Translations under genes and position numbers: made by a program | The notes under the pieces: model-generated | What the model was told of the DNA's origin: nothing | Databases searched by the model: none | What the model saw: only the letters and a program-made list of their open reading frames with translations | NCBI GenBank assembly: GCA_964016885.1 | Contig: OZ024755.1 | Location: 30,256,001-30,320,000, forward strand | Length of the DNA: 64,000 bases | Reading direction: 5' to 3' | Origin: Eledone cirrhosa | Lineage: Eukaryota | Shown here: piece by piece, positions 2,400 to 64,000 of the stretch | How the letters are laid out: each line of letters starts with the position of its first letter | Position numbering within the stretch: position 1 is the first letter of the stretch

Positions 2400-2403
<4 letters not shown>

Positions 2404-2682
2404 TGAGATTCTACAGGACTAGAACTGTTTCATTCATTAGAAATCATCAGGAATCTGGGTATCAAAAAATAAAAATGGTATGTATAGGTCTCTACAAGTG
2501 GTAGGAGAGGGTGGGGAGTGGGATGGGTGTAGGTCATTGGTTGATACCCAGATTCCTGATGATTTCTAATGAATGAAACAGTTCTAGTCCTGTAGAATCT
2601 CATCTATATTAAAACTTTTATACTCTGCTATGTATTGAGTACCTTACTTACTGTGGTTACCTCCGATTCAACCCGGAATAAC
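2400..2682. mobile_element. Short PLE-like terminal element with inverted duplication (2400-2465 vs 2541-2606) inserted in (TA)n
   Basis: Perfect inverted repeat containing a hammerhead; a related minus-strand tail lies at about 13282-13375. Confidence 0.7.
2550..2600 (+). ncRNA. Type I hammerhead ribozyme (inverted copy at 2406-2456, minus)
   Basis: AGATTC-CTGATGA-T TTC TAAT GAA T-GAAA CAG..CT-GTA^GAATCT. Confidence 0.8.
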
Positions 2683-2948
2683 GTATATATATATATATAA
2701 TACATGCATATATATATGTGTGTGTATGTATGTATTATATATATATATATATATATAAATAAGCATGTATTATATATATATATATGCATGTATTATATAT
2801 ATGTATATACATACACATACACACACATATATATATATATATAGGAAAATGTATGACCCCGACGGCAGAGCTCAATCCGTTTCGACGGCTATTTCTGGAC
2901 AATTATGGTGCGTTATGGTCCATTTGGTTCCTTACCACAACTCCTTCG

Positions 2949-11376: not shown

Positions 11377-11790
11377 ACATACATACATACATAATACATA
11401 CATACATACATACATACATACATACATACATACATACATGGTGGCTGCCAACTCGTTTTCGAGTACGGCCACTACTTTATATCCATGTAGGAGAACTCCT
11501 ACCAATGCGCTGAACGAATGTGACTTTAGTCCAGCCAGCGACTTGAAAACTCTGGTACAAACACTACACCTGTGACAATTATTGACACATAGTGCTGGGC
11601 CCATGGTACCATGTGACGACAAGTGCAGAGAGATCTCCAGATATAAAGCAATGCCTGTGTCGTGAAGCTTTTATAGTGAGCAAAGGCACTGCACAAAGCC
11701 AGTCCCACTCTCTTAACCAAGATGATATTTACCAAAAAGAAGAACAAGTCAACATCATTGGATACCATCAGAGTTGCAGGTGTTATATCA
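11377..11790 (-). mobile_element. Retroposon with RTE-BovB-like zinc-finger 3' end and (TATG)n tail
   Basis: CSVCTRVFKSLAGLKSH; near-identical to 25017-25430 in the opposite orientation. Confidence 0.7.
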
Positions 11791-15298: not shown

Positions 15299-15520
15299 AT
15301 ATACATATATATATTCAATTGGTCTAGCAAATGTAAAACCTTTACCGCAGGGCAGAACATCCTTGTAATACATATATATATATATATATGTAGATAAATC
15401 TACCAAGAGTTTACGGTAGTGTCCAATCCGTATGAAGAACTCAATGTAATCCGGATATCATGGAAAGAAGAGATGTAATGAAAAATCACTTTCGGTGAAA
15501 GATAAACGGAATACAGAGTC

Positions 15521-16001
15521 AAGATAAAATATTAAAAAAATAATGAATAAAACAATGAAACAGTTCCTTATATTAAACAAAAAAAGTTCATTATTTAACG
15601 ATCGTTTCTGGGATATATATGTGTTAGAATTGGCATGTATATTTAACAGATCTATGTACAAAATTATACAAAATTATATAAACTATCAAAATTAAATATA
15701 CATACCAACTCATATATATGCCGTCTTCAGAAATAAATCATTTATTTCAGAAATAAATAATTTATTTCCGTCTTCAGAAATAAATAATTTATTTCTGAAG
15801 ACGGCATATATATGAGTTGGTATGTATATTTAATTTTGATAGTTTGTATAATTTTGTATAATTTTGTACATAGATCTGTTAAATATACATGCCAATTCTA
15901 ACACATATATATCCCAGAAACGATCGTTAAATAATGAACTTTTTTTGTTTAATATAAGGAACTGTTTCATTGTTTTATTCATTATTTTTTAAATATTTTA
16001 T
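15521..16001. repeat. Near-perfect inverted repeat with arms of about 230 bp (head-to-head duplicated HHR element)
   Basis: 15521-15750 is the reverse complement of about 15765-16001. Confidence 0.9.
15789..15934 (+). ncRNA. Hammerhead with a 115-nt stem II (inverted copy at 15591-15736)
   Basis: TTATTT-CTGAAGA-[long hairpin GTTGGTATGTATATTTAA/TTAAATATACATGCCAAT]-GAAAC GATC GTT^AAATAA. Confidence 0.7.
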
Positions 16002-16163: not shown

Positions 16164-16194
<31 letters not shown>

Positions 16195-16342
16195 AAATAA
16201 CCGATTAAAGTTTAAGCAAAGAATCGCTGCTTTCACCCTTAACGGGATCTTCTGAAACTAACAAAGTATCGTCTTCCTGTCTTCCTCCGGTTGCAACGTT
16301 TTTTTGAAATATTCACTTCTGCGTTCACATATTGACTTTGTT

Positions 16343-16393
16343 AGTTTCAGAAGATCCCGTTAAGGGTGAAAGCAGCGATTCTTTGCTTAAACT
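16343..16393 (+). ncRNA. Hammerhead-like motif, CAGAAGA core variant (inverted copy at 16209-16259)
   Basis: AGTTT-CAGAAGA-T CCC GTTAA GGG T-GAAA GCA..TG-CTT^AAACT; IR 16191-16267/16335-16411; related fragment at about 1375-1478. Confidence 0.6.
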
Positions 16394-16641
16394 TTAATCT
16401 GTTATTTTAATAAATATTTGCTCTACGGTTCTTATATATTTGATATATATTTATCCTTATCGAGCCCTCTTTGGATTTTAATCTTCAAATTTATTATTAT
16501 TACTATATCCTACCCCCCACTCTCCTGAGCGTGAATTTAATAAACATTTATTGTACTGCCTCTCTGTTCTGTCCCTGTTCAATTTTTCATTATATATATA
16601 TATATATATATATATTGGAATAAATGCTCTGAAATAGCGAT

Positions 16642-16894
16642 ATATATGTGAAGATAGACATAGAATATTCGAAAATATTCTGTATGTTTATAATAAACAT
16701 TTTGAAGACCTAATCGCTATAGAATAGAATACGTCACGTATTACAATTAGATTCTCGATAAAAGCAAGGGAAGTAACCTACGCGTTTCATTAATTGTAAT
16801 ACGTGACGTATTCTATTCTATAGCGATTAGGTCTTCAAAATGTTTATTATAAACATACAGAATATTTTCGAATATTCTATGTCTACCTTCACAC

Positions 16895-20359: not shown

Positions 20360-20393
20360 ATTATATATATATATATATATATACAAATAAATA

Positions 20394-20534
20394 TATGATA
20401 GGGATAAACACTAATATAAGTATATAAGTGTTTGTATTGCAAATGACCAAGTTAGCTAGATTGAATCTAGCTAACTTGGTCATTTGCAATACAAACACTT
20501 ATATACTTGTATTAGTGTTTATCCCTATCATATA
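20394..20534. repeat. Near-perfect palindrome of about 140 bp next to (TA)n
   Basis: Fold-back centred near 20462-20463; a single-arm relative lies at about 48850-48920. Confidence 0.85.
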
Positions 20535-20677
20535 TCCATTTGTATTTCACGGCTCAGAAATATCCCTCTCTTTGAGCTATTTAATTGTAAAAGACTATTT
20601 GAGTTTATAACTCTCTCTATATATATATAAGTTAAAACAATGAAATAAAAAATCAAGTCATTAGAGATATATTTCAC

Positions 20678-22611: not shown

Positions 22612-22614
<3 letters not shown>

Positions 22615-22945
22615 AGGAGGTTATAGTTCACTTGAAGCATTGTGTAATGATGTATAAACTTTTGTATATGTATAATAAAGCCAAGACAATGCAGGTGTGG
22701 ACATAGAATAAAGAATGCAAATGCAAAAGATATTGTTGACAATTAGTCTTTTACCTTAGATTTATTTAAATGTCCGAAATTTTCGAGATAATATCTCTTC
22801 TTCAGAGGGAGTAAAGTTGTCAAACCAGTGTTCTAAATAGCTTGCCAAGTCATGCTGACAGGAAAAGGTATAGAGTATCTATAGAGTATCTTTTGCATTT
22901 GCATTCTTTATTCTATGTCCCTACCTGCACTGTTTTGGCTTTATT
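22612..22945 (-). mobile_element. Second copy of the PLE 3' end/pLTR (minus, 22612-22876) with a short inverted plus piece (about 22887-22945)
   Basis: Homologous to 12690-12950; carries CTGAAGA-AGAGATATTATCTC-GAAA on minus at about 22772-22812; another partial copy at 20804-20935. Confidence 0.75.
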
Positions 22946-22959
22946 ATACATATACAAAT

Positions 22960-23063
<104 letters not shown>

Positions 23064-23792: not shown

Positions 23793-23847
<55 letters not shown>

Positions 23848-23882
23848 CTGTAGTAAAAGTCCATAAGATGAGTTTGGTATGA

Positions 23883-24037
23883 ATAATTACAACAGTGACA
23901 CAAACAGGTACTTAAGTTTCCTTGGGTTCTGGACACCAACTCATTCCGCCTGTCATAAGAATTTTTCTTATGACAGGTGGAATCAGTTGGTGTCCAGAAC
24001 CCAACGAAACTTAAGTACCTGTTTATGTCACTGTAGC

Positions 24038-24043
<6 letters not shown>
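23883..24043. repeat. Inverted repeat carrying two divergent HHR-like motifs (23904-23953 minus; 23973-24022 plus)
   Basis: ACAGG-(C/T)GGAAT(G/C)A-GTTGG..CCAAC-GAAAC TTAA GTA^CCTGT. Confidence 0.6.
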
Positions 24044-25016: not shown

Positions 25017-26027
25017 CAACCCTGATGGTATCCAATGATGTTGACTTGTTCTTCTTTTTGGTAAATATCATCTCGGTTAAGAGAGTGGGACTGGTTTTGT
25101 GCAGTGCCTTTGCTCACTATAAAAGCTTCACGGCACAGGCATTGCTTTATATCTGGAGATCTCTCTGCACTTGTCGTCGCGTGGTGCCATGGGCCCAGCG
25201 CTGTGTGTCAATAATTGTCACAAATGTAGTGTTTGTACCAGAGTTTTCAAGTCGCTGACTGGACTAAAAGGTCACACTCGTTCAGCGCATCGGTAGGGGT
25301 TCTCCTACATGGATATAAAGTAGTGGCCGTACTCGAAAACGAATTGGCAGCCACCATGTATGTATGTATGTATGTATGTATGTATGTATGTATGTATGTA
25401 TGTATGTATGTATGTATGTATGTATGTATGCACAGGCATTGCTTTATATCTGAAGATCTCTCTGCACTTGTCGTCACATGGTACCATGGGCCCAGCACTA
25501 TGTGTCAGTAATTGTCACAAGTGTAGTGTTTGTACCAGAGTTTTCAAGTCGCTGGCTGGACTAAAAGGTCACACTCGTTCAGCGCATCGGTAGGGGTTCT
25601 CCTACATGGATATAAAGTAGTGGCCGTACTCGAAAACGAGTTGGCAGCCACCATGTATGTATGTATGTATGTATGTATGTATGTATGTATGTATGTATGT
25701 ATGTATGTATGTATGTATGTATGTATGTATGTATGTATGTATGTATGTATGCACAGGCATTGCTTTATATCTGAAGATCTCTCTGCACTTGTCGTCACAT
25801 GGTACCATGGGCCCAGCACTATGTGTCAGTAATTGTCACAAGTGTAGTGTTTGTACCAGAGTTTTCAAGTCGCTGGCTGGACTAAAAATCACACTCGTTC
25901 AGCGCATCGGTAGGGGTTCTCCTACATGCATATAAAGTAGTGGCCGTACTCGAAAACGAGTTGGCAGCCACCATGTATGTATGTATGTATGTATGTATGT
26001 ATGTATGTATGTATGTATGTATGTATG

Positions 26028-26056
<29 letters not shown>
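25017..26056 (+). mobile_element. Same retroposon family, followed by two further tandem 3' ends, each with a (TATG)n tail
   Basis: Units at about 25017-25356, 25431-25653 and 25751-25973; HKCSVCTRVFKSLAGLKGHTRSAHR. Confidence 0.75.
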
Positions 26057-26060
<4 letters not shown>

Positions 26061-26581
26061 GCTTTTATGTCTGTATGTGCGTGTACTATGTGTGTATATG
26101 TTTGTAGTCGCTGCGTTTGTAAATTAGATCTTGTTTTTTATTGAATCAAATTTTCTATGGCAATTCTCAATTCGAGGATCAAGGCTATAAAGAGAATATT
26201 TACGTTGAACGTTCGGAAAATATGTACTGGATTATATTGAATATAATTTTAGCATGAGAATATAATTGATATCACCATCCTATAAAAATGAAACTATAAT
26301 AACAAAACTGCTCATTTAATATATATGTATGTATGTATATATATATCAATATATATATATGTAAGTATGCATGTATACGTACATACATATATGTATACAG
26401 ACGTACAGTAGCATGCACATATATATATATATATACATATATACATACATATGCATACAGGTACACATACATATATGCACGTATCAGTTTAGCGGCGCTA
26501 ACGTCGCTTTGTTCGTTTGTAAACAAACTGAACAGCCTGAATTTATGCCATACGGTGTTAAGGCAACCACGTCACCTTTTT

Positions 26582-26668
26582 GTTCAACACTGACACAGGA
26601 ACGATGTACTAGTTTCAAGCTTGTTAGCTATCATCAGCACCGTTTACCCATCTGCCAGATAGTTGAAC
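26582..26668 (-). ncRNA. Hammerhead ribozyme, inverted copy in array A
   Basis: Reverse complement of 27263-27349 (TCATCAG at 26631-26637). Confidence 0.88.
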
Positions 26669-27262
26669 GTTCGAAAGTATATACTTTCCTTATGAAAATT
26701 AACGGCTGAGCAGCCTAATTTGCATATTGAGTGAGTTAAATCGGTCAGGCATACCGAAAACGATAAATTGAAACAAAATGAAAACGAAATTTCATTTCTC
26801 ACTCTTAGTATGGCACTTACTTAAATGTAAGTATGCATGCATACGTACATACATATATGTATACAGACGTACAGTAGCATGCACATATATGTATATATAT
26901 ACATATATACATACATATGCATACAGGTACACATACATATATGCACGTATCAGTTTAGCGGCGCTAACGTCGCTTTGTTCGTTTGTAAACAAACTGAACA
27001 GCCTGAATTTATGCCATACGGTGTTAAGGCAACCACGTCACCTTTTTGTTCAACACTGATACGTCTGTATACATATATGTATGTACGTATACATGCATAC
27101 TTACATTTAAGTAAGTGCCATACTAAGAGTGAGAAATGAAATTTCGTTTTCATTTTGTTTCAATTTATCGTTTTCGGTATGCCTGACCGATTTAACTCAC
27201 TCAATATGCAAATTAGGCTGCTCAGCCGTTAATTTTCATAAGGAAAGTATATACTTTCGAAC

Positions 27263-27349
27263 GTTCAACTATCTGGCAGATGGGTAAACGGTGCTGATGA
27301 TAGCTAACAAGCTTGAAACTAGTACATCGTTCCTGTGTCAGTGTTGAAC
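27263..27349 (+). ncRNA. Type I hammerhead ribozyme of array A (plus-strand cores at 27294, 27760, 28226, 28692, 29158, 29624, 30090, 30556)
   Basis: AACGGTG-CTGATGA-T AGCT AACA AGCT T-GAAA-C TA-GTA^CATCGTT; stem I extends via GG/CC past a TA bulge, CTGGCA/TGTCAG and GTTCAAC/GTTGAAC; predicted cut after 27324. Confidence 0.88.
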
Positions 27350-30300
27350 AAAAAGGTGACGTGGTTGCCTTAACACCGTATGGCATAAATTCAGGCTGTT
27401 CAGTTTGTTTACAAACGAACAAAGCGACGTTAGCGCCGCTAAACTGATACGTGCATATATGTATGTGTACCTGTATGCATATGTATGTATATATGTATAT
27501 ATATATATATATGTGCATGCTACTGTACGTCTGTATACATATATGTATGTACGTATACATGCATACTTACATTTAAGTAAGTGCCATACTAAGAGTGAGA
27601 AATGAAATTTCGTTTTCATTTTGTTTCAATTTATCGTTTTCGGTATGCCTGACCGATTTAACTCACTCAATATGCAAATTAGGCTGCTCAGCCGTTAATT
27701 TTCATAAGGAAAGTATATACTTTCGAACGTTCAACTATCTGGCAGATGGGTAAACGGTGCTGATGATAGCTAACAAGCTTGAAACTAGTACATCGTTCCT
27801 GTGTCAGTGTTGAACAAAAAGGTGACGTGGTTGCCTTAACACCGTATGGCATAAATTCAGGCTGTTCAGTTTGTTTACAAACGAACAAAGCGACGTTAGC
27901 GCCGCTAAACTGATACGTGCATATATGTATGTGTACCTGTATGCATATGTATGTATATATGTATATATATATATATATGTGCATGCTACTGTACGTCTGT
28001 ATACATATATGTATGTACGTATACATGCATACTTACATTTAAGTAAGTGCCATACTAAGAGTGAGAAATGAAATTTCGTTTTCATTTTGTTTCAATTTAT
28101 CGTTTTCGGTATGCCTGACCGATTTAACTCACTCAATATGCAAATTAGGCTGCTCAGCCGTTAATTTTCATAAGGAAAGTATATACTTTCGAACGTTCAA
28201 CTATCTGGCAGATGGGTAAACGGTGCTGATGATAGCTAACAAGCTTGAAACTAGTACATCGTTCCTGTGTCAGTGTTGAACAAAAAGGTGACGTGGTTGC
28301 CTTAACACCGTATGGCATAAATTCAGGCTGTTCAGTTTGTTTACAAACGAACAAAGCGACGTTAGCGCCGCTAAACTGATACGTGCATATATGTATGTGT
28401 ACCTGTATGCATATGTATGTATATATGTATATATATATATATATGTGCATGCTACTGTACGTCTGTATACATATATGTATGTACGTATACATGCATACTT
28501 ACATTTAAGTAAGTGCCATACTAAGAGTGAGAAATGAAATTTCGTTTTCATTTTGTTTCAATTTATCGTTTTCGGTATGCCTGACCGATTTAACTCACTC
28601 AATATGCAAATTAGGCTGCTCAGCCGTTAATTTTCATAAGGAAAGTATATACTTTCGAACGTTCAACTATCTGGCAGATGGGTAAACGGTGCTGATGATA
28701 GCTAACAAGCTTGAAACTAGTACATCGTTCCTGTGTCAGTGTTGAACAAAAAGGTGACGTGGTTGCCTTAACACCGTATGGCATAAATTCAGGCTGTTCA
28801 GTTTGTTTACAAACGAACAAAGCGACGTTAGCGCCGCTAAACTGATACGTGCATATATGTATGTGTACCTGTATGCATATGTATGTATATATGTATATAT
28901 ATATATATATGTGCATGCTACTGTACGTCTGTATACATATATGTATGTACGTATACATGCATACTTACATTTAAGTAAGTGCCATACTAAGAGTGAGAAA
29001 TGAAATTTCGTTTTCATTTTGTTTCAATTTATCGTTTTCGGTATGCCTGACCGATTTAACTCACTCAATATGCAAATTAGGCTGCTCAGCCGTTAATTTT
29101 CATAAGGAAAGTATATACTTTCGAACGTTCAACTATCTGGCAGATGGGTAAACGGTGCTGATGATAGCTAACAAGCTTGAAACTAGTACATCGTTCCTGT
29201 GTCAGTGTTGAACAAAAAGGTGACGTGGTTGCCTTAACACCGTATGGCATAAATTCAGGCTGTTCAGTTTGTTTACAAACGAACAAAGCGACGTTAGCGC
29301 CGCTAAACTGATACGTGCATATATGTATGTGTACCTGTATGCATATGTATGTATATATGTATATATATATATATATGTGCATGCTACTGTACGTCTGTAT
29401 ACATATATGTATGTACGTATACATGCATACTTACATTTAAGTAAGTGCCATACTAAGAGTGAGAAATGAAATTTCGTTTTCATTTTGTTTCAATTTATCG
29501 TTTTCGGTATGCCTGACCGATTTAACTCACTCAATATGCAAATTAGGCTGCTCAGCCGTTAATTTTCATAAGGAAAGTATATACTTTCGAACGTTCAACT
29601 ATCTGGCAGATGGGTAAACGGTGCTGATGATAGCTAACAAGCTTGAAACTAGTACATCGTTCCTGTGTCAGTGTTGAACAAAAAGGTGACGTGGTTGCCT
29701 TAACACCGTATGGCATAAATTCAGGCTGTTCAGTTTGTTTACAAACGAACAAAGCGACGTTAGCGCCGCTAAACTGATACGTGCATATATGTATGTGTAC
29801 CTGTATGCATATGTATGTATATATGTATATATATATATATATGTGCATGCTACTGTACGTCTGTATACATATATGTATGTACGTATACATGCATACTTAC
29901 ATTTAAGTAAGTGCCATACTAAGAGTGAGAAATGAAATTTCGTTTTCATTTTGTTTCAATTTATCGTTTTCGGTATGCCTGACCGATTTAACTCACTCAA
30001 TATGCAAATTAGGCTGCTCAGCCGTTAATTTTCATAAGGAAAGTATATACTTTCGAACGTTCAACTATCTGGCAGATGGGTAAACGGTGCTGATGATAGC
30101 TAACAAGCTTGAAACTAGTACATCGTTCCTGTGTCAGTGTTGAACAAAAAGGTGACGTGGTTGCCTTAACACCGTATGGCATAAATTCAGGCTGTTCAGT
30201 TTGTTTACAAACGAACAAAGCGACGTTAGCGCCGCTAAACTGATACGTGCATATATGTATGTGTACCTGTATGCATATGTATGTATATATGTATATATAT

Positions 30301-30888
30301 ATATATATGTGCATGCTACTGTACGTCTGTATACATATATGTATGTACGTATACATGCATACTTACATTTAAGTAAGTGCCATACTAAGAGTGAGAAATG
30401 AAATTTCGTTTTCATTTTGTTTCAATTTATCGTTTTCGGTATGCCTGACCGATTTAACTCACTCAATATGCAAATTAGGCTGCTCAGCCGTTAATTTTCA
30501 TAAGGAAAGTATATACTTTCGAACGTTCAACTATCTGGCAGATGGGTAAACGGTGCTGATGATAGCTAACAAGCTTGAAACTAGTACATCGTTCCTGTGT
30601 CAGTGTTGAACAAAAAGGTGACGTGGTTGCCTTAACACCGTATGGCATAAATTCAGGCTGTTCAGTTTGTTTACAAACGAACAAAGCGACGTTAGCGCTG
30701 CTAAACTGATACGTGCATATATGTATGTGTACCTGTATGCATATGTATGTATATATGTATATATATATATATATGTGCATGCTACTGTACGTCTGTATAC
30801 ATATATGTATGTACGTATACATGCATACTTACATTTAAGTAAGTGCCATACTAAGAGTGAGAAATGAAATTTCGTTTTCATTTTGTTT

Positions 30889-30979
<91 letters not shown>

Positions 30980-31081: not shown

Positions 31082-32470
31082 TTTGCTTTCCTGGGATTGA
31101 AGAAAATTTGTTCTTTTTCTTGCCTCTAATTTCTTTTTTTTTCCTCACGTAATATAATTAATTATAAACAATACTTTATCTCTGTACCCAGTGACACCCA
31201 TTATGATTTGCCTGTAGCTAGACTCATTAATAATTTTTTTATGATTTTGCCTAACACGGGGTAACGCCTTCTTCATTCCGTCCATCGGGGCCGTGTGGTG
31301 GCCAGTACGTGGGACCCCATTTGCTCATGATAGTGAGAGATGGGAAGGGCGAGAGAGATGGAGGCGATGACAGTGGGAGTTTGTGACTCCTCTGTGTTCA
31401 GGCCTGGTGTACATGTAGGTGCATACTAACTGCCTTATCATTTAGACACACAATATTACTTTTGTAAAATATCAACGGTTTTACTCGTTAACTCTTATAT
31501 GTGAAATCATTCAGATAATCCTTTTCATATGAATGATATAGGTTACTGATTCATCAGAGGGTCTTATATAGCAGAATCTGTCGAACGAAAAACGGAGAAA
31601 TTCCCTTGCGGTATTTATTAGCGCCAATTCATATCCTTTGTTCAATTGCCGTAACGGAAACCTCTGCTTCCACCTGTCCATTGTTGTTCGTTGTATTTTT
31701 GTTTAGTCGCTAGTCGCAGGCCTGCGTGACTCCACTCATCTTTGATCATAAACAACCGACCTCTATCTTGCATTTTCCACTATATGTCGCATAAGACACT
31801 CCCATGTCACATCTTTAGAACCCATACGGTCCAGAATTCCTTACCTAACCATGCCATTCCAACAGCCGCAAACTTAAAGTTCATCAGCTTGATTTTACCG
31901 TATCGATCTCACCAGTGTCGGAATTCCTGGGATATCATAGTCACAGCCCGTTTCTCCAGACCAACAGTAAATACTGAAACCCTATCGAAGTAACTATATC
32001 CCACCAAACTTTACTACATTTTTCAATTCTTAACAACATCAAACCTTCAAGCTACAGATATCATAACATTAATTGACAAATCAAGTTATGTATATTGTCA
32101 ACAGTATTCAATAATTAAATAGTTAATCATTTCAGAAAATCTAATCAATCGAGACAGAGTTAGAATTACGGTGAAATGTAATGAAAACGAAAAAGGAGAA
32201 AATTAGGGACGGAAATATAAACGTTATGAAATAACGATGCAAATATATCAACGTTTATATAAGCGATATGATATAGCGTATATTATATCATAACTGGAAG
32301 GATTGACATTTGAAAATTTTAAGATAAAGTACCAGTAATATACTGGGTAATTGCTGGCCTTGTGCCAAAAGTAGAAACACTTGTATATAAGAATATTTAT
32401 GTTTAATCAGCAGCTACGAAATTTAGTAAATAAATTATATAATATTCATTCATTATTTACTCAAAGTAAA

Positions 32471-32792
32471 GGGCGATGGATTGGCAGTATCGGTAGAGGG
32501 TCGGACGCCATGCTTTGACGCATAGAGTTACGGCCCTTGTCATTCTGAGTTCAAATCCCGCCGAGGTTAACTTTGCCTTTCATGCTTACGGGGTCGATAA
32601 AATAAAGTACCAGTAATACACTGGGTAATTGCTGGCCTTGTGCCAAAAGTAGAAACAATTATTTACTCAAAGTAAATCAAAGTTCAAATCCCGCCGAGGT
32701 TAACTTTGCCTTTCATGCTTACGGGGTCGATAAAATAAAGTACCAGTAATGTACTGGGTATTTGCTGGGTTTGTGCCAAAAGTAGAAACAAT
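32471..32792 (+). mobile_element. Full SINE plus 5'-truncated SINE in tandem
   Basis: TTATTTACTCAAAGTAA occurs before, between and after the two copies. Confidence 0.85.
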
Positions 32793-34566
32793 TATTTACT
32801 CAAAGTAATCCAACTTATTTTACTAACGGGATAAACAAATATATTTAGGACACAGTCCCGCATTCATCCCTTTATTATTAAGATATACATAAAACAGAGT
32901 CCTGTCTTGCAACAGAATGTACTTCTCTAAAGCATCTATGAACCAAATGCTGGTGTTTAACGGAACCGTGCTGTTGCTTGACTCTACGTTATCCCTGATA
33001 CAGCATTTCTATAGTAAAAGGGATGGCAACCATAATCAACTTGTTAATTCTTCTTTCATACATAGTGTATGTTGAACTACATTATTAAATGTGTCATTGA
33101 TTTTCTAAAACAGCAAAATCAAACTCGAGGAACATTTGATCCAGATTTCCAGTGGCTCCTTCTGTCACTGGCACTATAATTGTTTCTACTTTTGGCACAA
33201 GGCCAGCAATTACCCAGTACATTACTGGTACTTTACTTTATCGACCCCCTAAGCATGAAAGGCAAAGTTAACCTCGGCGGGATTTGAACTCAGAACGTAA
33301 AGAGACGTAACTATGCTGGAAAGCATGTCCGACCCTCTACCGATACTGCCAATCCACCGCCCTTGTCACTGGCACTATAATAATACATATTATACGAGTA
33401 CTGGAGCTTTAAATAAGTTTATTCAAGTTGATGGTCACTTATGTAAGGAACGGAGAGTTAGATGTAAAGCGATAAGTGAAAACTATTACTCATAGTAACG
33501 TTGCTTTTTATTTTCCTATAAATATGGCAGAAAATTGCGAACATCATTTTTCTATAGGCAGAAGTTAACCCAGAACGCAAGGAACCGGAATCTGTGTTAT
33601 AATGCTTTTCATCAGACGATCTAACGCTTCTGACAATTCGCTGACTAATCTGTATTTAACCTTATTATTTAACACCAATATGACTTTTATGGCGGAACTA
33701 TAGCATGACGTAATTTGTTGAAGTTATTTTTATTATATTCTCACAAAGCATATTTGAGTTTATATTCTCACAAAGCATATTCGAGTCTACTTTGTTTGTA
33801 TTTATTACGTAGACGTCTACTTATCTATTGCTAATCATAGGAAGGACAGCATACAAGAATCATTTAATGTACATTTTGTTTTATAAATGATTATATACGA
33901 ATCTTTTAACATAAAATTGGCAAAAGATTTATATGATGTTGGTATTTTATGAGTTTCCAAGTTTATAAAGTAATAAAATATTATTCTTACAGCTTTGTAA
34001 TTAATAATCATTCACGTTTACAGACATTGCAACACCTCTAGGTATGTTAGACTTTGATGCAGAAAATAACGTTTCTTATATATATCAGAACCATAATATA
34101 CTAAATGATTTCTGTAAAGACTTCATAGTTGACTCTTGCCCAATTTGCTTTAATAATATGAATTAATTTTCAGATATTAATTGTTAATTTCTTGAAATTA
34201 TTTCCTCATTTTCTAGAGTCATTAACAATTATCGTTAATTTGTTTTTCTTCCTTCGACAACTAAGAGTGAAATTTCAATTAGTTTTTCAAAAAGGTCAGT
34301 CACCTTTATTTAATAAAACTCATGACATTATCCTAATTTTTAATAATTAAATTATACTAGACAAAGATTATTCGTAACCCTTGTTTTATATGTCAAACGT
34401 GTTCCCAGATCAAAGCAGTTATAGTATAACATAGAAGATAGGTGTCACTGTCAACTGGAGGAAGATCCTCGATACTAATAACAGAAGGACATGTGGAATA
34501 CGTTTAATCCTCCAAGTCAAGCACACTCTACTCTCAAACAATCCCATATTATTTCTTGTCACCTTT

Positions 34567-58708: not shown

Positions 58709-58749
<41 letters not shown>

Positions 58750-58944
58750 GTTAAAGATGTACATCCATATATGTATACTGAAATACTAGTATGTATATGA
58801 ATACACACACGTATACATATGTAGATGTACCAAGTTTTTTCACTGGTCACTTTACTGTGAGTGGCCAGCTATTCTGTATGTAAACACACAGACAAACCGG
58901 TTTTTAGAGTCATACTGGTTTTTGAGGAAACACCTTTCCTCTAT

Positions 58945-59036
58945 TCTCCAGAAAGCCAGACAAGGAATATTGAACTAGTTTCGTTGTTGTTACAACTCAT
59001 CAGCAATATTTACCTATCTTCCGGCCTCTCTAGAGA
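58945..59036 (-). ncRNA. Hammerhead ribozyme in the minus arm of array B (7 copies; TCATCAG at 58997, 59464, 59931, 60398, 60865, 61332, 61799)
   Basis: Reverse complement of 62401-62492. Confidence 0.92.
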
Positions 59037-62000
59037 ATCGTAAAAGCACATATCGTTATATGCTTTTTCTATGAAAATTAGTAGTGGGCAGACTAATTTG
59101 CATAGAGTGTGAGTAAGTACCGGTTCAACGGAGACGATAAAAACAAATAACGAAACGAAATTAAATTTCGTTTCGTTTGTAACTCACTTTTGTATGACTG
59201 ACGCTTAAACAATTAAGTTAAAGATGTACATCCATATATGTATACTGAAATACTAGTATGTATATGAATACACACACGTATACATATGTAGATGTACCAA
59301 GTTTTTTCACTGGTCACTTTACTGTGAGTGGCCAGCTATTCTGTATGTAAACACACAGACAAACCGGTTTTTAGAGTCATACTGGTTTTTGAGGAAACAC
59401 CTTTCCTCTATTCTCCAGAAAGCCAGACAAGGAATATTGAACTAGTTTCGTTGTTGTTACAACTCATCAGCAATATTTACCTATCTTCCGGCCTCTCTAG
59501 AGAATCGTAAAAGCACATATCGTTATATGCTTTTTCTATGAAAATTAGTAGTGGGCAGACTAATTTGCATAGAGTGTGAGTAAGTACCGGTTCAACGGAG
59601 ACGATAAAAACAAATAACGAAACGAAATTAAATTTCGTTTCGTTTGTAACTCACTTTTGTATGACTGACGCTTAAACAATTAAGTTAAAGATGTACATCC
59701 ATATATGTATACTGAAATACTAGTATGTATATGAATACACACACGTATACATATGTAGATGTACCAAGTTTTTTCACTGGTCACTTTACTGTGAGTGGCC
59801 AGCTATTCTGTATGTAAACACACAGACAAACCGGTTTTTAGAGTCATACTGGTTTTTGAGGAAACACCTTTCCTCTATTCTCCAGAAAGCCAGACAAGGA
59901 ATATTGAACTAGTTTCGTTGTTGTTACAACTCATCAGCAATATTTACCTATCTTCCGGCCTCTCTAGAGAATCGTAAAAGCACATATCGTTATATGCTTT
60001 TTCTATGAAAATTAGTAGTGGGCAGACTAATTTGCATAGAGTGTGAGTAAGTACCGGTTCAACGGAGACGATAAAAACAAATAACGAAACGAAATTAAAT
60101 TTCGTTTCGTTTGTAACTCACTTTTGTATGACTGACGCTTAAACAATTAAGTTAAAGATGTACATCCATATATGTATACTGAAATACTAGTATGTATATG
60201 AATACACACACGTATACATATGTAGATGTACCAAGTTTTTTCACTGGTCACTTTACTGTGAGTGGCCAGCTATTCTGTATGTAAACACACAGACAAACCG
60301 GTTTTTAGAGTCATACTGGTTTTTGAGGAAACACCTTTCCTCTATTCTCCAGAAAGCCAGACAAGGAATATTGAACTAGTTTCGTTGTTGTTACAACTCA
60401 TCAGCAATATTTACCTATCTTCCGGCCTCTCTAGAGAATCGTAAAAGCACATATCGTTATATGCTTTTTCTATGAAAATTAGTAGTGGGCAGACTAATTT
60501 GCATAGAGTGTGAGTAAGTACCGGTTCAACGGAGACGATAAAAACAAATAACGAAACGAAATTAAATTTCGTTTCGTTTGTAACTCACTTTTGTATGACT
60601 GACGCTTAAACAATTAAGTTAAAGATGTACATCCATATATGTATACTGAAATACTAGTATGTATATGAATACACACACGTATACATATGTAGATGTACCA
60701 AGTTTTTTCACTGGTCACTTTACTGTGAGTGGCCAGCTATTCTGTATGTAAACACACAGACAAACCGGTTTTTAGAGTCATACTGGTTTTTGAGGAAACA
60801 CCTTTCCTCTATTCTCCAGAAAGCCAGACAAGGAATATTGAACTAGTTTCGTTGTTGTTACAACTCATCAGCAATATTTACCTATCTTCCGGCCTCTCTA
60901 GAGAATCGTAAAAGCACATATCGTTATATGCTTTTTCTATGAAAATTAGTAGTGGGCAGACTAATTTGCATAGAGTGTGAGTAAGTACCGGTTCAACGGA
61001 GACGATAAAAACAAATAACGAAACGAAATTAAATTTCGTTTCGTTTGTAACTCACTTTTGTATGACTGACGCTTAAACAATTAAGTTAAAGATGTACATC
61101 CATATATGTATACTGAAATACTAGTATGTATATGAATACACACACGTATACATATGTAGATGTACCAAGTTTTTTCACTGGTCACTTTACTGTGAGTGGC
61201 CAGCTATTCTGTATGTAAACACACAGACAAACCGGTTTTTAGAGTCATACTGGTTTTTGAGGAAACACCTTTCCTCTATTCTCCAGAAAGCCAGACAAGG
61301 AATATTGAACTAGTTTCGTTGTTGTTACAACTCATCAGCAATATTTACCTATCTTCCGGCCTCTCTAGAGAATCGTAAAAGCACATATCGTTATATGCTT
61401 TTTCTATGAAAATTAGTAGTGGGCAGACTAATTTGCATAGAGTGTGAGTAAGTACCGGTTCAACGGAGACGATAAAAACAAATAACGAAACGAAATTAAA
61501 TTTCGTTTCGTTTGTAACTCACTTTTGTATGACTGACGCTTAAACAATTAAGTTAAAGATGTACATCCATATATGTATACTGAAATACTAGTATGTATAT
61601 GAATACACACACGTATACATATGTAGATGTACCAAGTTTTTTCACTGGTCACTTTACTGTGAGTGGCCAGCTATTCTGTATGTAAACACACAGACAAACC
61701 GGTTTTTAGAGTCATACTGGTTTTTGAGGAAACACCTTTCCTCTATTCTCCAGAAAGCCAGACAAGGAATATTGAACTAGTTTCGTTGTTGTTACAACTC
61801 ATCAGCAATATTTACCTATCTTCCGGCCTCTCTAGAGGATCGTAAAAGCACATATCGTTATATGCTTTTTCTATGAAAATTAGTAGTGGGCAGACTAATT
61901 TGCATAGAGTGTGAGTAAGTACCGGTTCAACGGAGACGATAAAAACAAATAACGAAACGAAATTAAATTTCGTTTCGTTTGTAACTCACTTTTGTATGAC

Positions 62001-62400
62001 TGACGCTTGTCTGGCTTTCTGGAGAATAGAGGAAAGGTGTTTCCTCAAAAACCAGTATGACTCTAAAAACCGGTTTGTCTGTGTGTTTACATACAGAATA
62101 GCTGGCCACTCACAGTAAAGTGACCAGTGAAAAAACTTGGTACATCTACATATGTATACGTGTGTGTATTCATATACATACTAGTATTTCAGTATACATA
62201 TATGGATGTACATCTTTAACTTAATTGTTTAAGCGTCAGTCATACAAAAGTGAGTTACAAACGAAACGAAATTTAATTTCGTTTCGTTATTTGTTTTTAT
62301 CGTCTCCGTTGAACCGGTACTTACTCACACTCTATGCAAATTAGTCTGCCCACTACTAATTTTCATAGAAAAAGCATATAACGATATGTGCTTTTACGAT

Positions 62401-62492
62401 TCTCTAGAGAGGCCGGAAGATAGGTAAATATTGCTGATGAGTTGTAACAACAACGAAACTAGTTCAATATTCCTTGTCTGGCTTTCTGGAGA
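62401..62492 (+). ncRNA. Type I hammerhead ribozyme of array B (plus-strand cores at 62434, 62901, 63368, 63835)
   Basis: AATATTG-CTGATGA-GTTGT AACA ACAAC-GAAA-C TA-GTT^CAATATT; stem I extends AGG/CCT past a TA bulge and TCTCTAGAGAGGCCGGA/TCTGGCTTTCTGGAGA; predicted cut after 62464. Confidence 0.92.
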
Positions 62493-64000
62493 ATAGAGGA
62501 AAGGTGTTTCCTCAAAAACCAGTATGACTCTAAAAACCGGTTTGTCTGTGTGTTTACATACAGAATAGCTGGCCACTCACAGTAAAGTGACCAGTGAAAA
62601 AACTTGGTACATCTACATATGTATACGTGTGTGTATTCATATACATACTAGTATTTCAGTATACATATATGGATGTACATCTTTAACTTAATTGTTTAAG
62701 CGTCAGTCATACAAAAGTGAGTTACAAACGAAACGAAATTTAATTTCGTTTCGTTATTTGTTTTTATCGTCTCCGTTGAACCGGTACTTACTCACACTCT
62801 ATGCAAATTAGTCTGCCCACTACTAATTTTCATAGAAAAAGCATATAACGATATGTGCTTTTACGATTCTCTAGAGAGGCCGGAAGATAGGTAAATATTG
62901 CTGATGAGTTGTAACAACAACGAAACTAGTTCAATATTCCTTGTCTGGCTTTCTGGAGAATAGAGGAAAGGTGTTTCCTCAAAAACCAGTATGACTCTAA
63001 AAACCGGTTTGTCTGTGTGTTTACATACAGAATAGCTGGCCACTCACAGTAAAGTGACCAGTGAAAAAACTTGGTACATCTACATATGTATACGTGTGTG
63101 TATTCATATACATACTAGTATTTCAGTATACATATATGGATGTACATCTTTAACTTAATTGTTTAAGCGTCAGTCATACAAAAGTGAGTTACAAACGAAA
63201 CGAAATTTAATTTCGTTTCGTTATTTGTTTTTATCGTCTCCGTTGAACCGGTACTTACTCACACTCTATGCAAATTAGTCTGCCCACTACTAATTTTCAT
63301 AGAAAAAGCATATAACGATATGTGCTTTTACGATTCTCTAGAGAGGCCGGAAGATAGGTAAATATTGCTGATGAGTTGTAACAACAACGAAACTAGTTCA
63401 ATATTCCTTGTCTGGCTTTCTGGAGAATAGAGGAAAGGTGTTTCCTCAAAAACCAGTATGACTCTAAAAACCGGTTTGTCTGTGTGTTTACATACAGAAT
63501 AGCTGGCCACTCACAGTAAAGTGACCAGTGAAAAAACTTGGTACATCTACATATGTATACGTGTGTGTATTCATATACATACTAGTATTTCAGTATACAT
63601 ATATGGATGTACATCTTTAACTTAATTGTTTAAGCGTCAGTCATACAAAAGTGAGTTACAAACGAAACGAAATTTAATTTCGTTTCGTTATTTGTTTTTA
63701 TCGTCTCCGTTGAACCGGTACTTACTCACACTCTATGCAAATTAGTCTGCCCACTACTAATTTTCATAGAAAAAGCATATAACGATATGTGCTTTTACGA
63801 TTCTCTAGAGAGGCCGGAAGATAGGTAAATATTGCTGATGAGTTGTAACAACAACGAAACTAGTTCAATATTCCTTGTCTGGCTTTCTGGAGAATAGAGG
63901 AAAGGTGTTTCCTCAAAAACCAGTATGACTCTAAAAACCGGTTTGTCTGTGTGTTTACATACAGAATAGCTGGCCACTCACAGTAAAGTGACCAGTGAAA

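What the first reader, a model, noticed from the sequence alone, without database searches (positions are those of the whole stretch)
27040..27110. Array A inversion junction starts 13 nt after the predicted ribozyme cut, with twin-priming-like geometry
Seen: the arms are head-to-head. The minus arm starts (27059, TCAGTG...) 13 nt downstream of GUA^CATCGTTCCTGTG and ends at ...CTTACAT at (TA)n. The plus arm starts (27060) about 46 nt before that end point in unit phase. Established: this is the layout of twin-primed 5' inversions in non-LTR retrotransposition, and PLEs also produce inverted 5' segments. Inference: the template was a multimeric RNA whose 5' end was made by self-cleavage.
Basis: partly seen in the sequence, partly recalled or inferred. 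Interest (0 to 1): 0.75.

Follow-up and report, generated by a model that had tools for sequence, protein, structure and literature searches.

The report
Two-armed ribozyme repeat, Penelope-type insertion
This is a young back-to-back insertion of a repeat carrying a predicted self-cutting RNA motif, likely written from both ends of a DNA cut by a Penelope-type retrotransposon enzyme; the joint does lie 13 bases past the predicted cut site, but that closeness is probably chance rather than proof that the RNA began at the cut.

Summary
The geometry is real: the minus arm starts 13 nt after the predicted hammerhead cut, the plus arm 46-47 nt before the minus arm's outer end. The element is a 466-bp non-LTR retrozyme array, 1.5 + 8.2 units head-to-head in (TA)n, with a 15-nt candidate target duplication and outer ends 58 nt apart: the Penelope-like (PLE) footprint, not L1 twin priming. 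The 46-nt overlap means little in a tandem unit (36% by chance). The claim that self-cleavage made the RNA's 5' end is not established. For it: array B also joins 8 nt after its cut (5.9% by chance) and two contigs hint at ends at the cut. Against it: copying passed nine cut sites; three other hammerhead-like elements start 86-147 nt upstream of theirs; seven short two-armed inserts show the same inversion without a cut end; contigs show no pile-up at the cut (weak test). No genome was held, so breakpoints could not be mapped. The scan found this kind of element many times on other DNA of this genome, and two unchecked notes call cut-site proximity coincidence. Likely PLE two-ended priming; cut-made end about 25%.

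The parts
26346..26360 (+). Left copy of candidate 15-nt target-site duplication; last 2 nt shared with the minus arm
   Evidence: identical to 30888-30902; the CA interruption before an AT run occurs at 14 of 588 run ends in the window
26359..27059 (-). Short (inverted) arm, 1.5 units, RNA-sense from phase 14 to phase 248; 2 private substitutions (26891, 26840)
26607..26637 (-). Hammerhead core of the minus arm, copied intact across its cut site
27055..27064 (.). Head-to-head inversion joint (27059/27060); blunt, or 4-nt microhomology with one extra base
27060..30892 (+). Long arm, 8.2 units of 466 bp, phase 202 to phase 306; 7 full cut-to-cut units identical, 1 substitution at 30699
27288..27330 (+). 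First plus-arm type I hammerhead (stem I 6 bp, stem II with U.U first pair, 2-bp palindromic stem III); predicted cut after 27324, repeated every 466 nt
30835..30892 (+). One-sided 58-nt extension (phases 249-306) between the two outer ends, PLE 'tail'-like
30888..30902 (+). Right copy of candidate target duplication; first 5 nt also match the element end; runs into a long (TA)n
58744..64000 (.). Array B, related 467-bp family (261 of 484 columns identical to A): minus arm 62008 (phase 234) to 58744 (phase 229), plus arm from 62006 (phase 9, 3-nt microhomology) running off the window; internal replicate

Best explanation
The locus is a head-to-head, 1.5 + 8.2-unit array of a 466-bp hammerhead-bearing repeat in (TA)n, likely made in one event when a Penelope-like retrotransposon protein nicked both DNA strands and primed reverse transcription from each end at two preferred internal RNA sites, and the joint is probably just where the two cDNAs stopped and were joined. 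Shown: arms, phases, flanks, candidate target duplication, 58-nt offset, near-identity of both arms. Inferred: PLE protein in trans; start sites at phases 248 and about 302-306; a template whose hammerheads were uncut or rejoined when copied (circle or uncut multimer; I lean to a circle, not tested); the 13-nt distance to the cut is most likely chance.
For: Outer ends 58 nt apart, both at (TA)n, as in PLE copies with an inverted 5'-truncated copy and a one-sided tail (PMC8557442, PMC3846280, passages). A purified PLE protein nicks and extends both strands at AT-rich DNA and starts at two internal RNA sites whose spacing is the tail; hammerhead cleavage was not needed and uncut RNA was the main substrate (PMC11167929). 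The short-arm outer end falls in the loop of a similarly placed small hairpin in both A (248) and B (229) (homology judged by eye). One X8 contig leaves the unit at phase 310 into (AT)n, next to the long-arm end. Copying crossed 9 cut sites in A. 7 of 57 TA-bounded segments elsewhere in the window are short two-armed inserts with one arm flush to TA and a one-sided extension of 31-181 nt; none has a complete hammerhead in my scan. 3 of 3 other hammerhead-like elements begin 86, 136 and 147 nt upstream of their predicted cut. 0 of 20 loose-end rows shown lie 5' of cut+1..+30; the one inversion joint seen in family contigs is at phases 386/44. 3 substitutions in 4.5 kb although the family is polymorphic: one template lineage for both arms.
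Against: Both arrays in the window have one inner end 8-13 nt after the cut (5.9% for B alone; 1.2% for B repeating both features of A). One X2 contig joins (TA)n at 27789, which with the shared TA is a 5' end at the cut, and X1 record 7 begins at cut+2 with 25 unaligned letters before it. The contig tests are weak: 90 and 55 loose-end rows hidden, phases 100-242 masked, only 1 joint among 4258 X1 contigs. Two substitutions in the inner 453 nt of the short arm differ from the same phases in its outer part, which a single circle does not predict. The tail (58 nt) is longer than the 30-40 nt in print. No PLE partner was shown (no genome). The short inserts and the 3 other hammerhead-like elements are other families.
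Confidence: 0.6

Rival explanations
1. One reading: same two-ended PLE priming, but one cDNA ran off a 5' end made by hammerhead cleavage (linear multimer, or a circle opened by its own ribozyme during copying), stopping 8-13 nt short, and the other cDNA stopped near the second priming region.
For: 2 of 2 arrays have one inner end at phase 9-14 and the other at phase 202-237. One (TA)n-joined end at the cut and one contig starting at cut+2. Hammerhead pairing is kept by compensatory change. Linear cut monomers and multimers exist in other animals' retrozymes (PMC7229834).
Against: Neither end is at the cut itself. In A the near-cut end belongs to the arm with the short outer end, in B to the other arm. 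A's hammerhead has U.U at the first stem II pair, and 8 of 9 Xenopus retrozyme dimers did not cleave in vitro (preprint 10.64898/2026.07.22.740005). No pile-up in contigs (weak). Two earlier scan notes on this genome call such proximity coincidence (unchecked).
Confidence: 0.25
2. One cDNA with fold-back or self-priming on an antisense template made the inverted arm, as proposed for rotifer Penelope palindromes.
For: Proposed in PMC3846280 (passage). Two short inserts in the window are near-perfect hairpins (spacers 1 and 3 nt). The 10 nt across the joint also occur at phase 119 of the unit.
Against: A's arms begin at different phases (14 and 202), with no palindrome at the joint. A 10-nt match arises in 17% of random joints. 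It does not explain a fixed outer end of the inverted arm.
Confidence: 0.08
3. The inversion is a later rearrangement, two separate insertions in one TA run, or an assembly artefact.
For: The joint was not seen in independent reads (could not be: its right side is in the masked part). Best runs hold 0.87-0.89 of the words of the joint stretch. Perfect units may be partly assembly smoothing.
Against: Unique, unmirrored flanks; one 15-nt duplication brackets both arms; the arms share one haplotype yet the short arm has private changes; the same build recurs in array B and 7 short inserts.
Confidence: 0.07

Closest known systems
Metazoan non-LTR retrozymes (Cervera and de la Pena 2020, PMC7229834, passages and Discussion read; Li, Clavereau, Pollet 2026, 10.64898/2026.07.22.740005, parts 1 and 3 of 5 and passages read)
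   Same: Non-coding, low-GC tandem units each with a type I hammerhead, short stem III, long target duplication, proposed PLE mobilisation and rolling-circle copying.
   Different: Unit (466 bp) is just above the 150-450 bp range given. In the text I searched neither paper describes inverted two-armed insertions ('inverted' 0 times in PMC7229834, once in the preprint, in a reference). Expression, circles and cleavage are untested here.
Endonuclease-bearing Penelope-like elements (PMC8557442, PMC3846280, passages read; PMC11167929, parts 1-2 of 4 read)
   Same: Inverted 5'-truncated copy head-to-head with partial tandems, one-sided tail, (TA)n targets, target duplication, two internal start sites, both strands extended in vitro.
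   Different: No ORF; both arms are multimers of a small unit; tail 58 nt rather than 30-40 nt; no partner element identified.
L1 twin priming (as described in 10.1101/2024.08.27.596794, passages read)
   Same: Both nicked strands prime on RNA, giving a 5' inversion with target duplication and a short duplication or deletion at the joint (medians 22 and 14.5 bp there).
   Different: No poly(A) primer; second start appears to be a set site of the element, not chance complementarity; in a tandem unit the overlap is defined only modulo 466.

Membership tests
Metazoan non-LTR retrozyme | Tandem repeats of a few hundred bp (150-450) | tested here: met
   466-bp period, slightly above range
Metazoan non-LTR retrozyme | Type I hammerhead in every unit | tested here: met
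   9 of 9 cores in A, 11 of 11 in B; 6 of 13 pairs compensatory A vs B, one U.U in A; below Rfam gathering
Metazoan non-LTR retrozyme | Non-coding, GC under 50% | tested here: met
   GC 0.35-0.36; none of 30 stop-to-stop frames of 150 aa or more overlaps the arrays
Metazoan non-LTR retrozyme | Target duplication longer than 4 bp, when present | tested here: met
   15-nt candidate; mostly TA, empty site not seen
Metazoan non-LTR retrozyme | Expressed as self-cleaved linear and circular RNA | not testable with these tools
   needs RNA experiments
PLE-type insertion | Inverted 5'-truncated copy head-to-head with tandem copies | tested here: met
PLE-type insertion | One-sided 30-40 bp tail between two start sites | tested here: inconclusive
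   one-sided offset present but 58 nt; one locus
PLE-type insertion | AT-rich / (TA)n target | tested here: met
   both flanks
PLE-type insertion | Autonomous PLE with related terminal repeat in the genome | not testable with these tools
   no genome held; 0 of 6 window frames scanned hit RT or GIY-YIG
L1 twin priming | First primer on a 3' poly(A) tail | tested here: not met
   long arm ends inside the unit at phase 306
L1 twin priming | Second primer at a chance internal complementarity | tested here: inconclusive
   2-nt match only; site is at a similar hairpin loop in A and B, which suggests a set site; n = 2
L1 twin priming | Short deletion or duplication where first cDNA meets second primer | tested here: inconclusive
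   47-nt duplication in phase, 36% by chance; B's second outer end is outside the window
L1 twin priming | Microhomology at the joint | tested here: inconclusive
   A: 0 nt, or 4 nt with one extra base; B: 3 nt

The most novel reading that the evidence does not exclude
The hammerhead is the stop signal of rolling-circle reverse transcription: two PLE reverse transcriptases copy one retrozyme circle from both ends of the DNA cut until the circle cleaves itself, so that one arm of each insertion ends just past the cut and array length records the ribozyme's lifetime. This would be the first genomic footprint of a role for hammerhead cleavage in PLE-driven transposition.
Probability: 0.15. Interest if true: 0.7.

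Novelty: new member of a known kind. Interest (0 to 1): 0.3.

Why it matters
How animal retrozymes are copied into DNA, and what PLE hammerheads are for, are both left open in the papers read (PMC7229834, PMC8557442, PMC11167929). Two-armed arrays link retrozymes to the two-strand, two-start-site chemistry shown in vitro for a PLE, and the phase of the inner joints across loci is a direct test of linear cut RNA against circle. This locus poses the test but does not answer it, and the scan has many other loci of the same build.

Tried and rejected
Whole genome: none held, so breakpoints could not be mapped. Run search: 20 of 24 rows hold part of the stretch, 15 studies; no RNA holder listed. 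Laying unit A: X4 and X24 gave 0 records (no test); phases 100-242 masked, so this locus's own joint could not show. Laying the cut region: no joints; contig ends near the cut in X8 are not usable, since contigs cannot show RNA ends and nearby variants break contigs. Viral contigs: 58 motif hits, none similar to either unit. Metagenome contigs: 2 hits, neither similar to the units or the window. Rfam: miRNA-family matches come from the TA-rich hairpin and are far below gathering. The 10-nt match of the joint to phase 119: chance (17%). Fold of the A hammerhead region alone is not better than shuffles (z -1.43 and -0.54; B -2.88). Pfam on 6 of 30 long frames: only a sub-cutoff DUF6451. Empty-allele test not attempted: 31-letter contigs cannot span the long TA run. 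Paper searches for Penelope + twin priming + inversion (3 papers, none on this by title or abstract) and retrozyme + head-to-head/inverted (15 of 1,025 listed) showed no report of two-armed retrozyme insertions; the library lacks most subscription papers, and supplements of PMC7229834 (Fig. S9) and PMC11167929 (Figs S1, S2), not opened, may bear on this.

Full report
Observation. With phase 1 as the first base after the predicted GUA^ cut, array A has eight plus-strand cuts at 27324 + 466n and one minus-strand cut at 26607. The minus arm runs from 27059 (phase 14) to 26359 (phase 248), the plus arm from 27060 (phase 202) to 30892 (phase 306). The joint is blunt, or has 4 nt of microhomology with one extra base. 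Only three substitutions occur in 4.5 kb, two in the inner part of the short arm and one in the last plus unit.

The unit. It is non-coding and about 35% GC. Each copy has the type I hammerhead core with a 6-bp stem I, a stem II whose first pair is U.U, and a 2-bp palindromic stem III. Rfam does not reach its cut-off, but against the related array B (261 of 484 columns identical) 6 of 13 pairs change on both sides and slid controls give at most 1 (two sequences, structure drawn by me from the standard hammerhead numbering, which is recalled). This fits a metazoan non-LTR retrozyme (PMC7229834). Cleavage is predicted, not shown; 8 of 9 Xenopus dimers did not cleave in vitro. Earlier scan notes call the host a cephalopod; I did not test that.

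The ends. Both flanks are (TA)n. A 15-nt string at 26346-26360 recurs at 30888-30902; its first 5 nt also match the long arm's end and its last 2 the short arm's end. The CA interruption that makes it distinctive precedes 14 of 588 AT-run ends in the window (arrays included). I read it as a target duplication with short primer-template matches; the empty site was not seen. The outer ends are 58 nt apart in phase. PLE insertions are described with an inverted 5'-truncated copy, a one-sided 30-40 bp tail and microsatellite targets (PMC8557442, PMC3846280), and a purified PLE protein nicks and extends both strands and starts at two internal sites that bound the tail, without needing hammerhead cleavage (PMC11167929). 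B's visible outer end (phase 229) lies in the loop of a small hairpin placed like the one holding A's 248 (correspondence judged by eye, the machine alignment is loose there). One X8 contig leaves unit A at phase 310 into (AT)n.

Is it twin priming? It works like it in that both nicked strands would prime. It is not the L1 process: there is no poly(A) end, and the second start looks set by the element. In L1 the duplication at the joint has a median of 22 bp, so 47 is not out of range, but here the overlap is defined only modulo 466 and one inner end falls within 46 nt of the short outer end 36% of the time by chance.

Did self-cleavage make the 5' end? For: array B's joint is 8 nt after its cut (5.9% by chance for 14 nt or less; 1.2% for repeating both features of A); one X2 contig joins (TA)n at the cut and one X1 contig begins at cut+2. 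Against: neither array end is at the cut; the near-cut end belongs to the arm with the short outer end in A but to the other arm in B; nine cut sites were crossed in A; 3 of 3 other hammerhead-like elements in the window start 86-147 nt upstream of their cuts; 7 of 57 TA-bounded segments are short two-armed inserts with one-sided extensions and no complete hammerhead in my scan (an eighth hit was array A itself; 3 of the 7 hold a CTGAnGA heptamer, and in 2402-2683 both arms start upstream of it). In contigs of organism A the family is abundant (4258 contigs laid in X1), but there is no listed place where many begin, the only inversion joint is at phases 386/44, and 0 of 20 loose-end rows shown are 5' ends at cut+1 to +30. 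These tests are weak: 90 and 55 rows were hidden, phases 100-242 were masked, X1-X3 are one sample, and short joint contigs are probably lost. Two earlier notes on other pieces of this genome conclude that such proximity is coincidence; they are unchecked, I could test them only partly, and they moved my odds down from my first reading.

Mechanism. Most likely (0.6): a PLE protein bound the retrozyme RNA, nicked both strands of a TA run about 15 nt apart, started cDNA from each end at phases about 302-306 and 248, copied through uncut hammerheads (circle or uncut multimer), and the two cDNAs were joined where they stopped. The anatomy is shown; enzyme, template form and order of steps are inferred. 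A cut-made end, including a circle opened by its own ribozyme, keeps 0.25; fold-back 0.08; later rearrangement or artefact 0.07. The two private changes in the inner short arm are unexplained and sit poorly with one circle.

Novelty. The element class and the inverted PLE footprint are each in print; my searches showed no paper on two-armed retrozyme arrays, but this scan has reported them many times in this and other genomes. What is special to this finding, the link between joint and cut, is unproven and probably chance. Papers seen: PMC11167929 parts 1-2 of 4; 10.64898/2026.07.22.740005 parts 1 and 3 of 5 and passages; PMC7229834 passages and Discussion; PMC8557442, PMC3846280 and 10.1101/2024.08.27.596794 passages; no supplements. 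Interest 0.3.

Noticed in passing
window 58744-64000: Array B: its minus arm is almost exactly 7 units (starts phase 234, ends phase 229); the other outer end is beyond the window and is predicted near phase 288 if the two-site model holds.
   Followed up: partly
window 2402-2683, 15390-15998, 16193-16590, 16616-16894, 20384-20617, 22613-22962, 23842-24040: Seven short inverted-arm inserts between TA runs, one arm flush with TA and a one-sided extension of 79, 137, 181, 31, 75, 44 and 44 nt; they look like MITEs but fit short two-ended PLE-type insertions.
   Followed up: partly
window 22613, 12949, 20933: Three copies of one small family end at the same base against TA; the inverted arm ends about 40 nt earlier.
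   Followed up: partly
window 13642 (+), 48728 (+), 57760 (-): Three further, unrelated type I hammerhead-like motifs in single elements next to TA runs.
   Followed up: partly
window 25017-26057 and 11440-11778: Three tandem copies of a unit of about 220 bp separated by (ATGT)n runs, with an inverted copy at 11.4 kb; no hammerhead found.
   Followed up: no
window 26891 and 26840: Both private substitutions of the short arm lie in its inner 453 nt and differ from the same phases in its outer part; possible second template or hairpin-linked mutation.
   Followed up: partly
window 27447-27571 (unit phases about 120-245): Each unit holds a long TA-rich hairpin; A and B are predicted to share an overall branched fold despite about 54% identity.
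   Followed up: no
window 26875-27337: Runs labelled as 14 different organisms and one wastewater metagenome hold 0.26-0.89 of this stretch's words; only organism A was confirmed by laying, X4 and X24 gave nothing.
   Followed up: partly
window 32470-32800 and about 20 other places: A dispersed repeat of about 190 bp, 80-97% alike, SINE-like by my recall.
   Followed up: no
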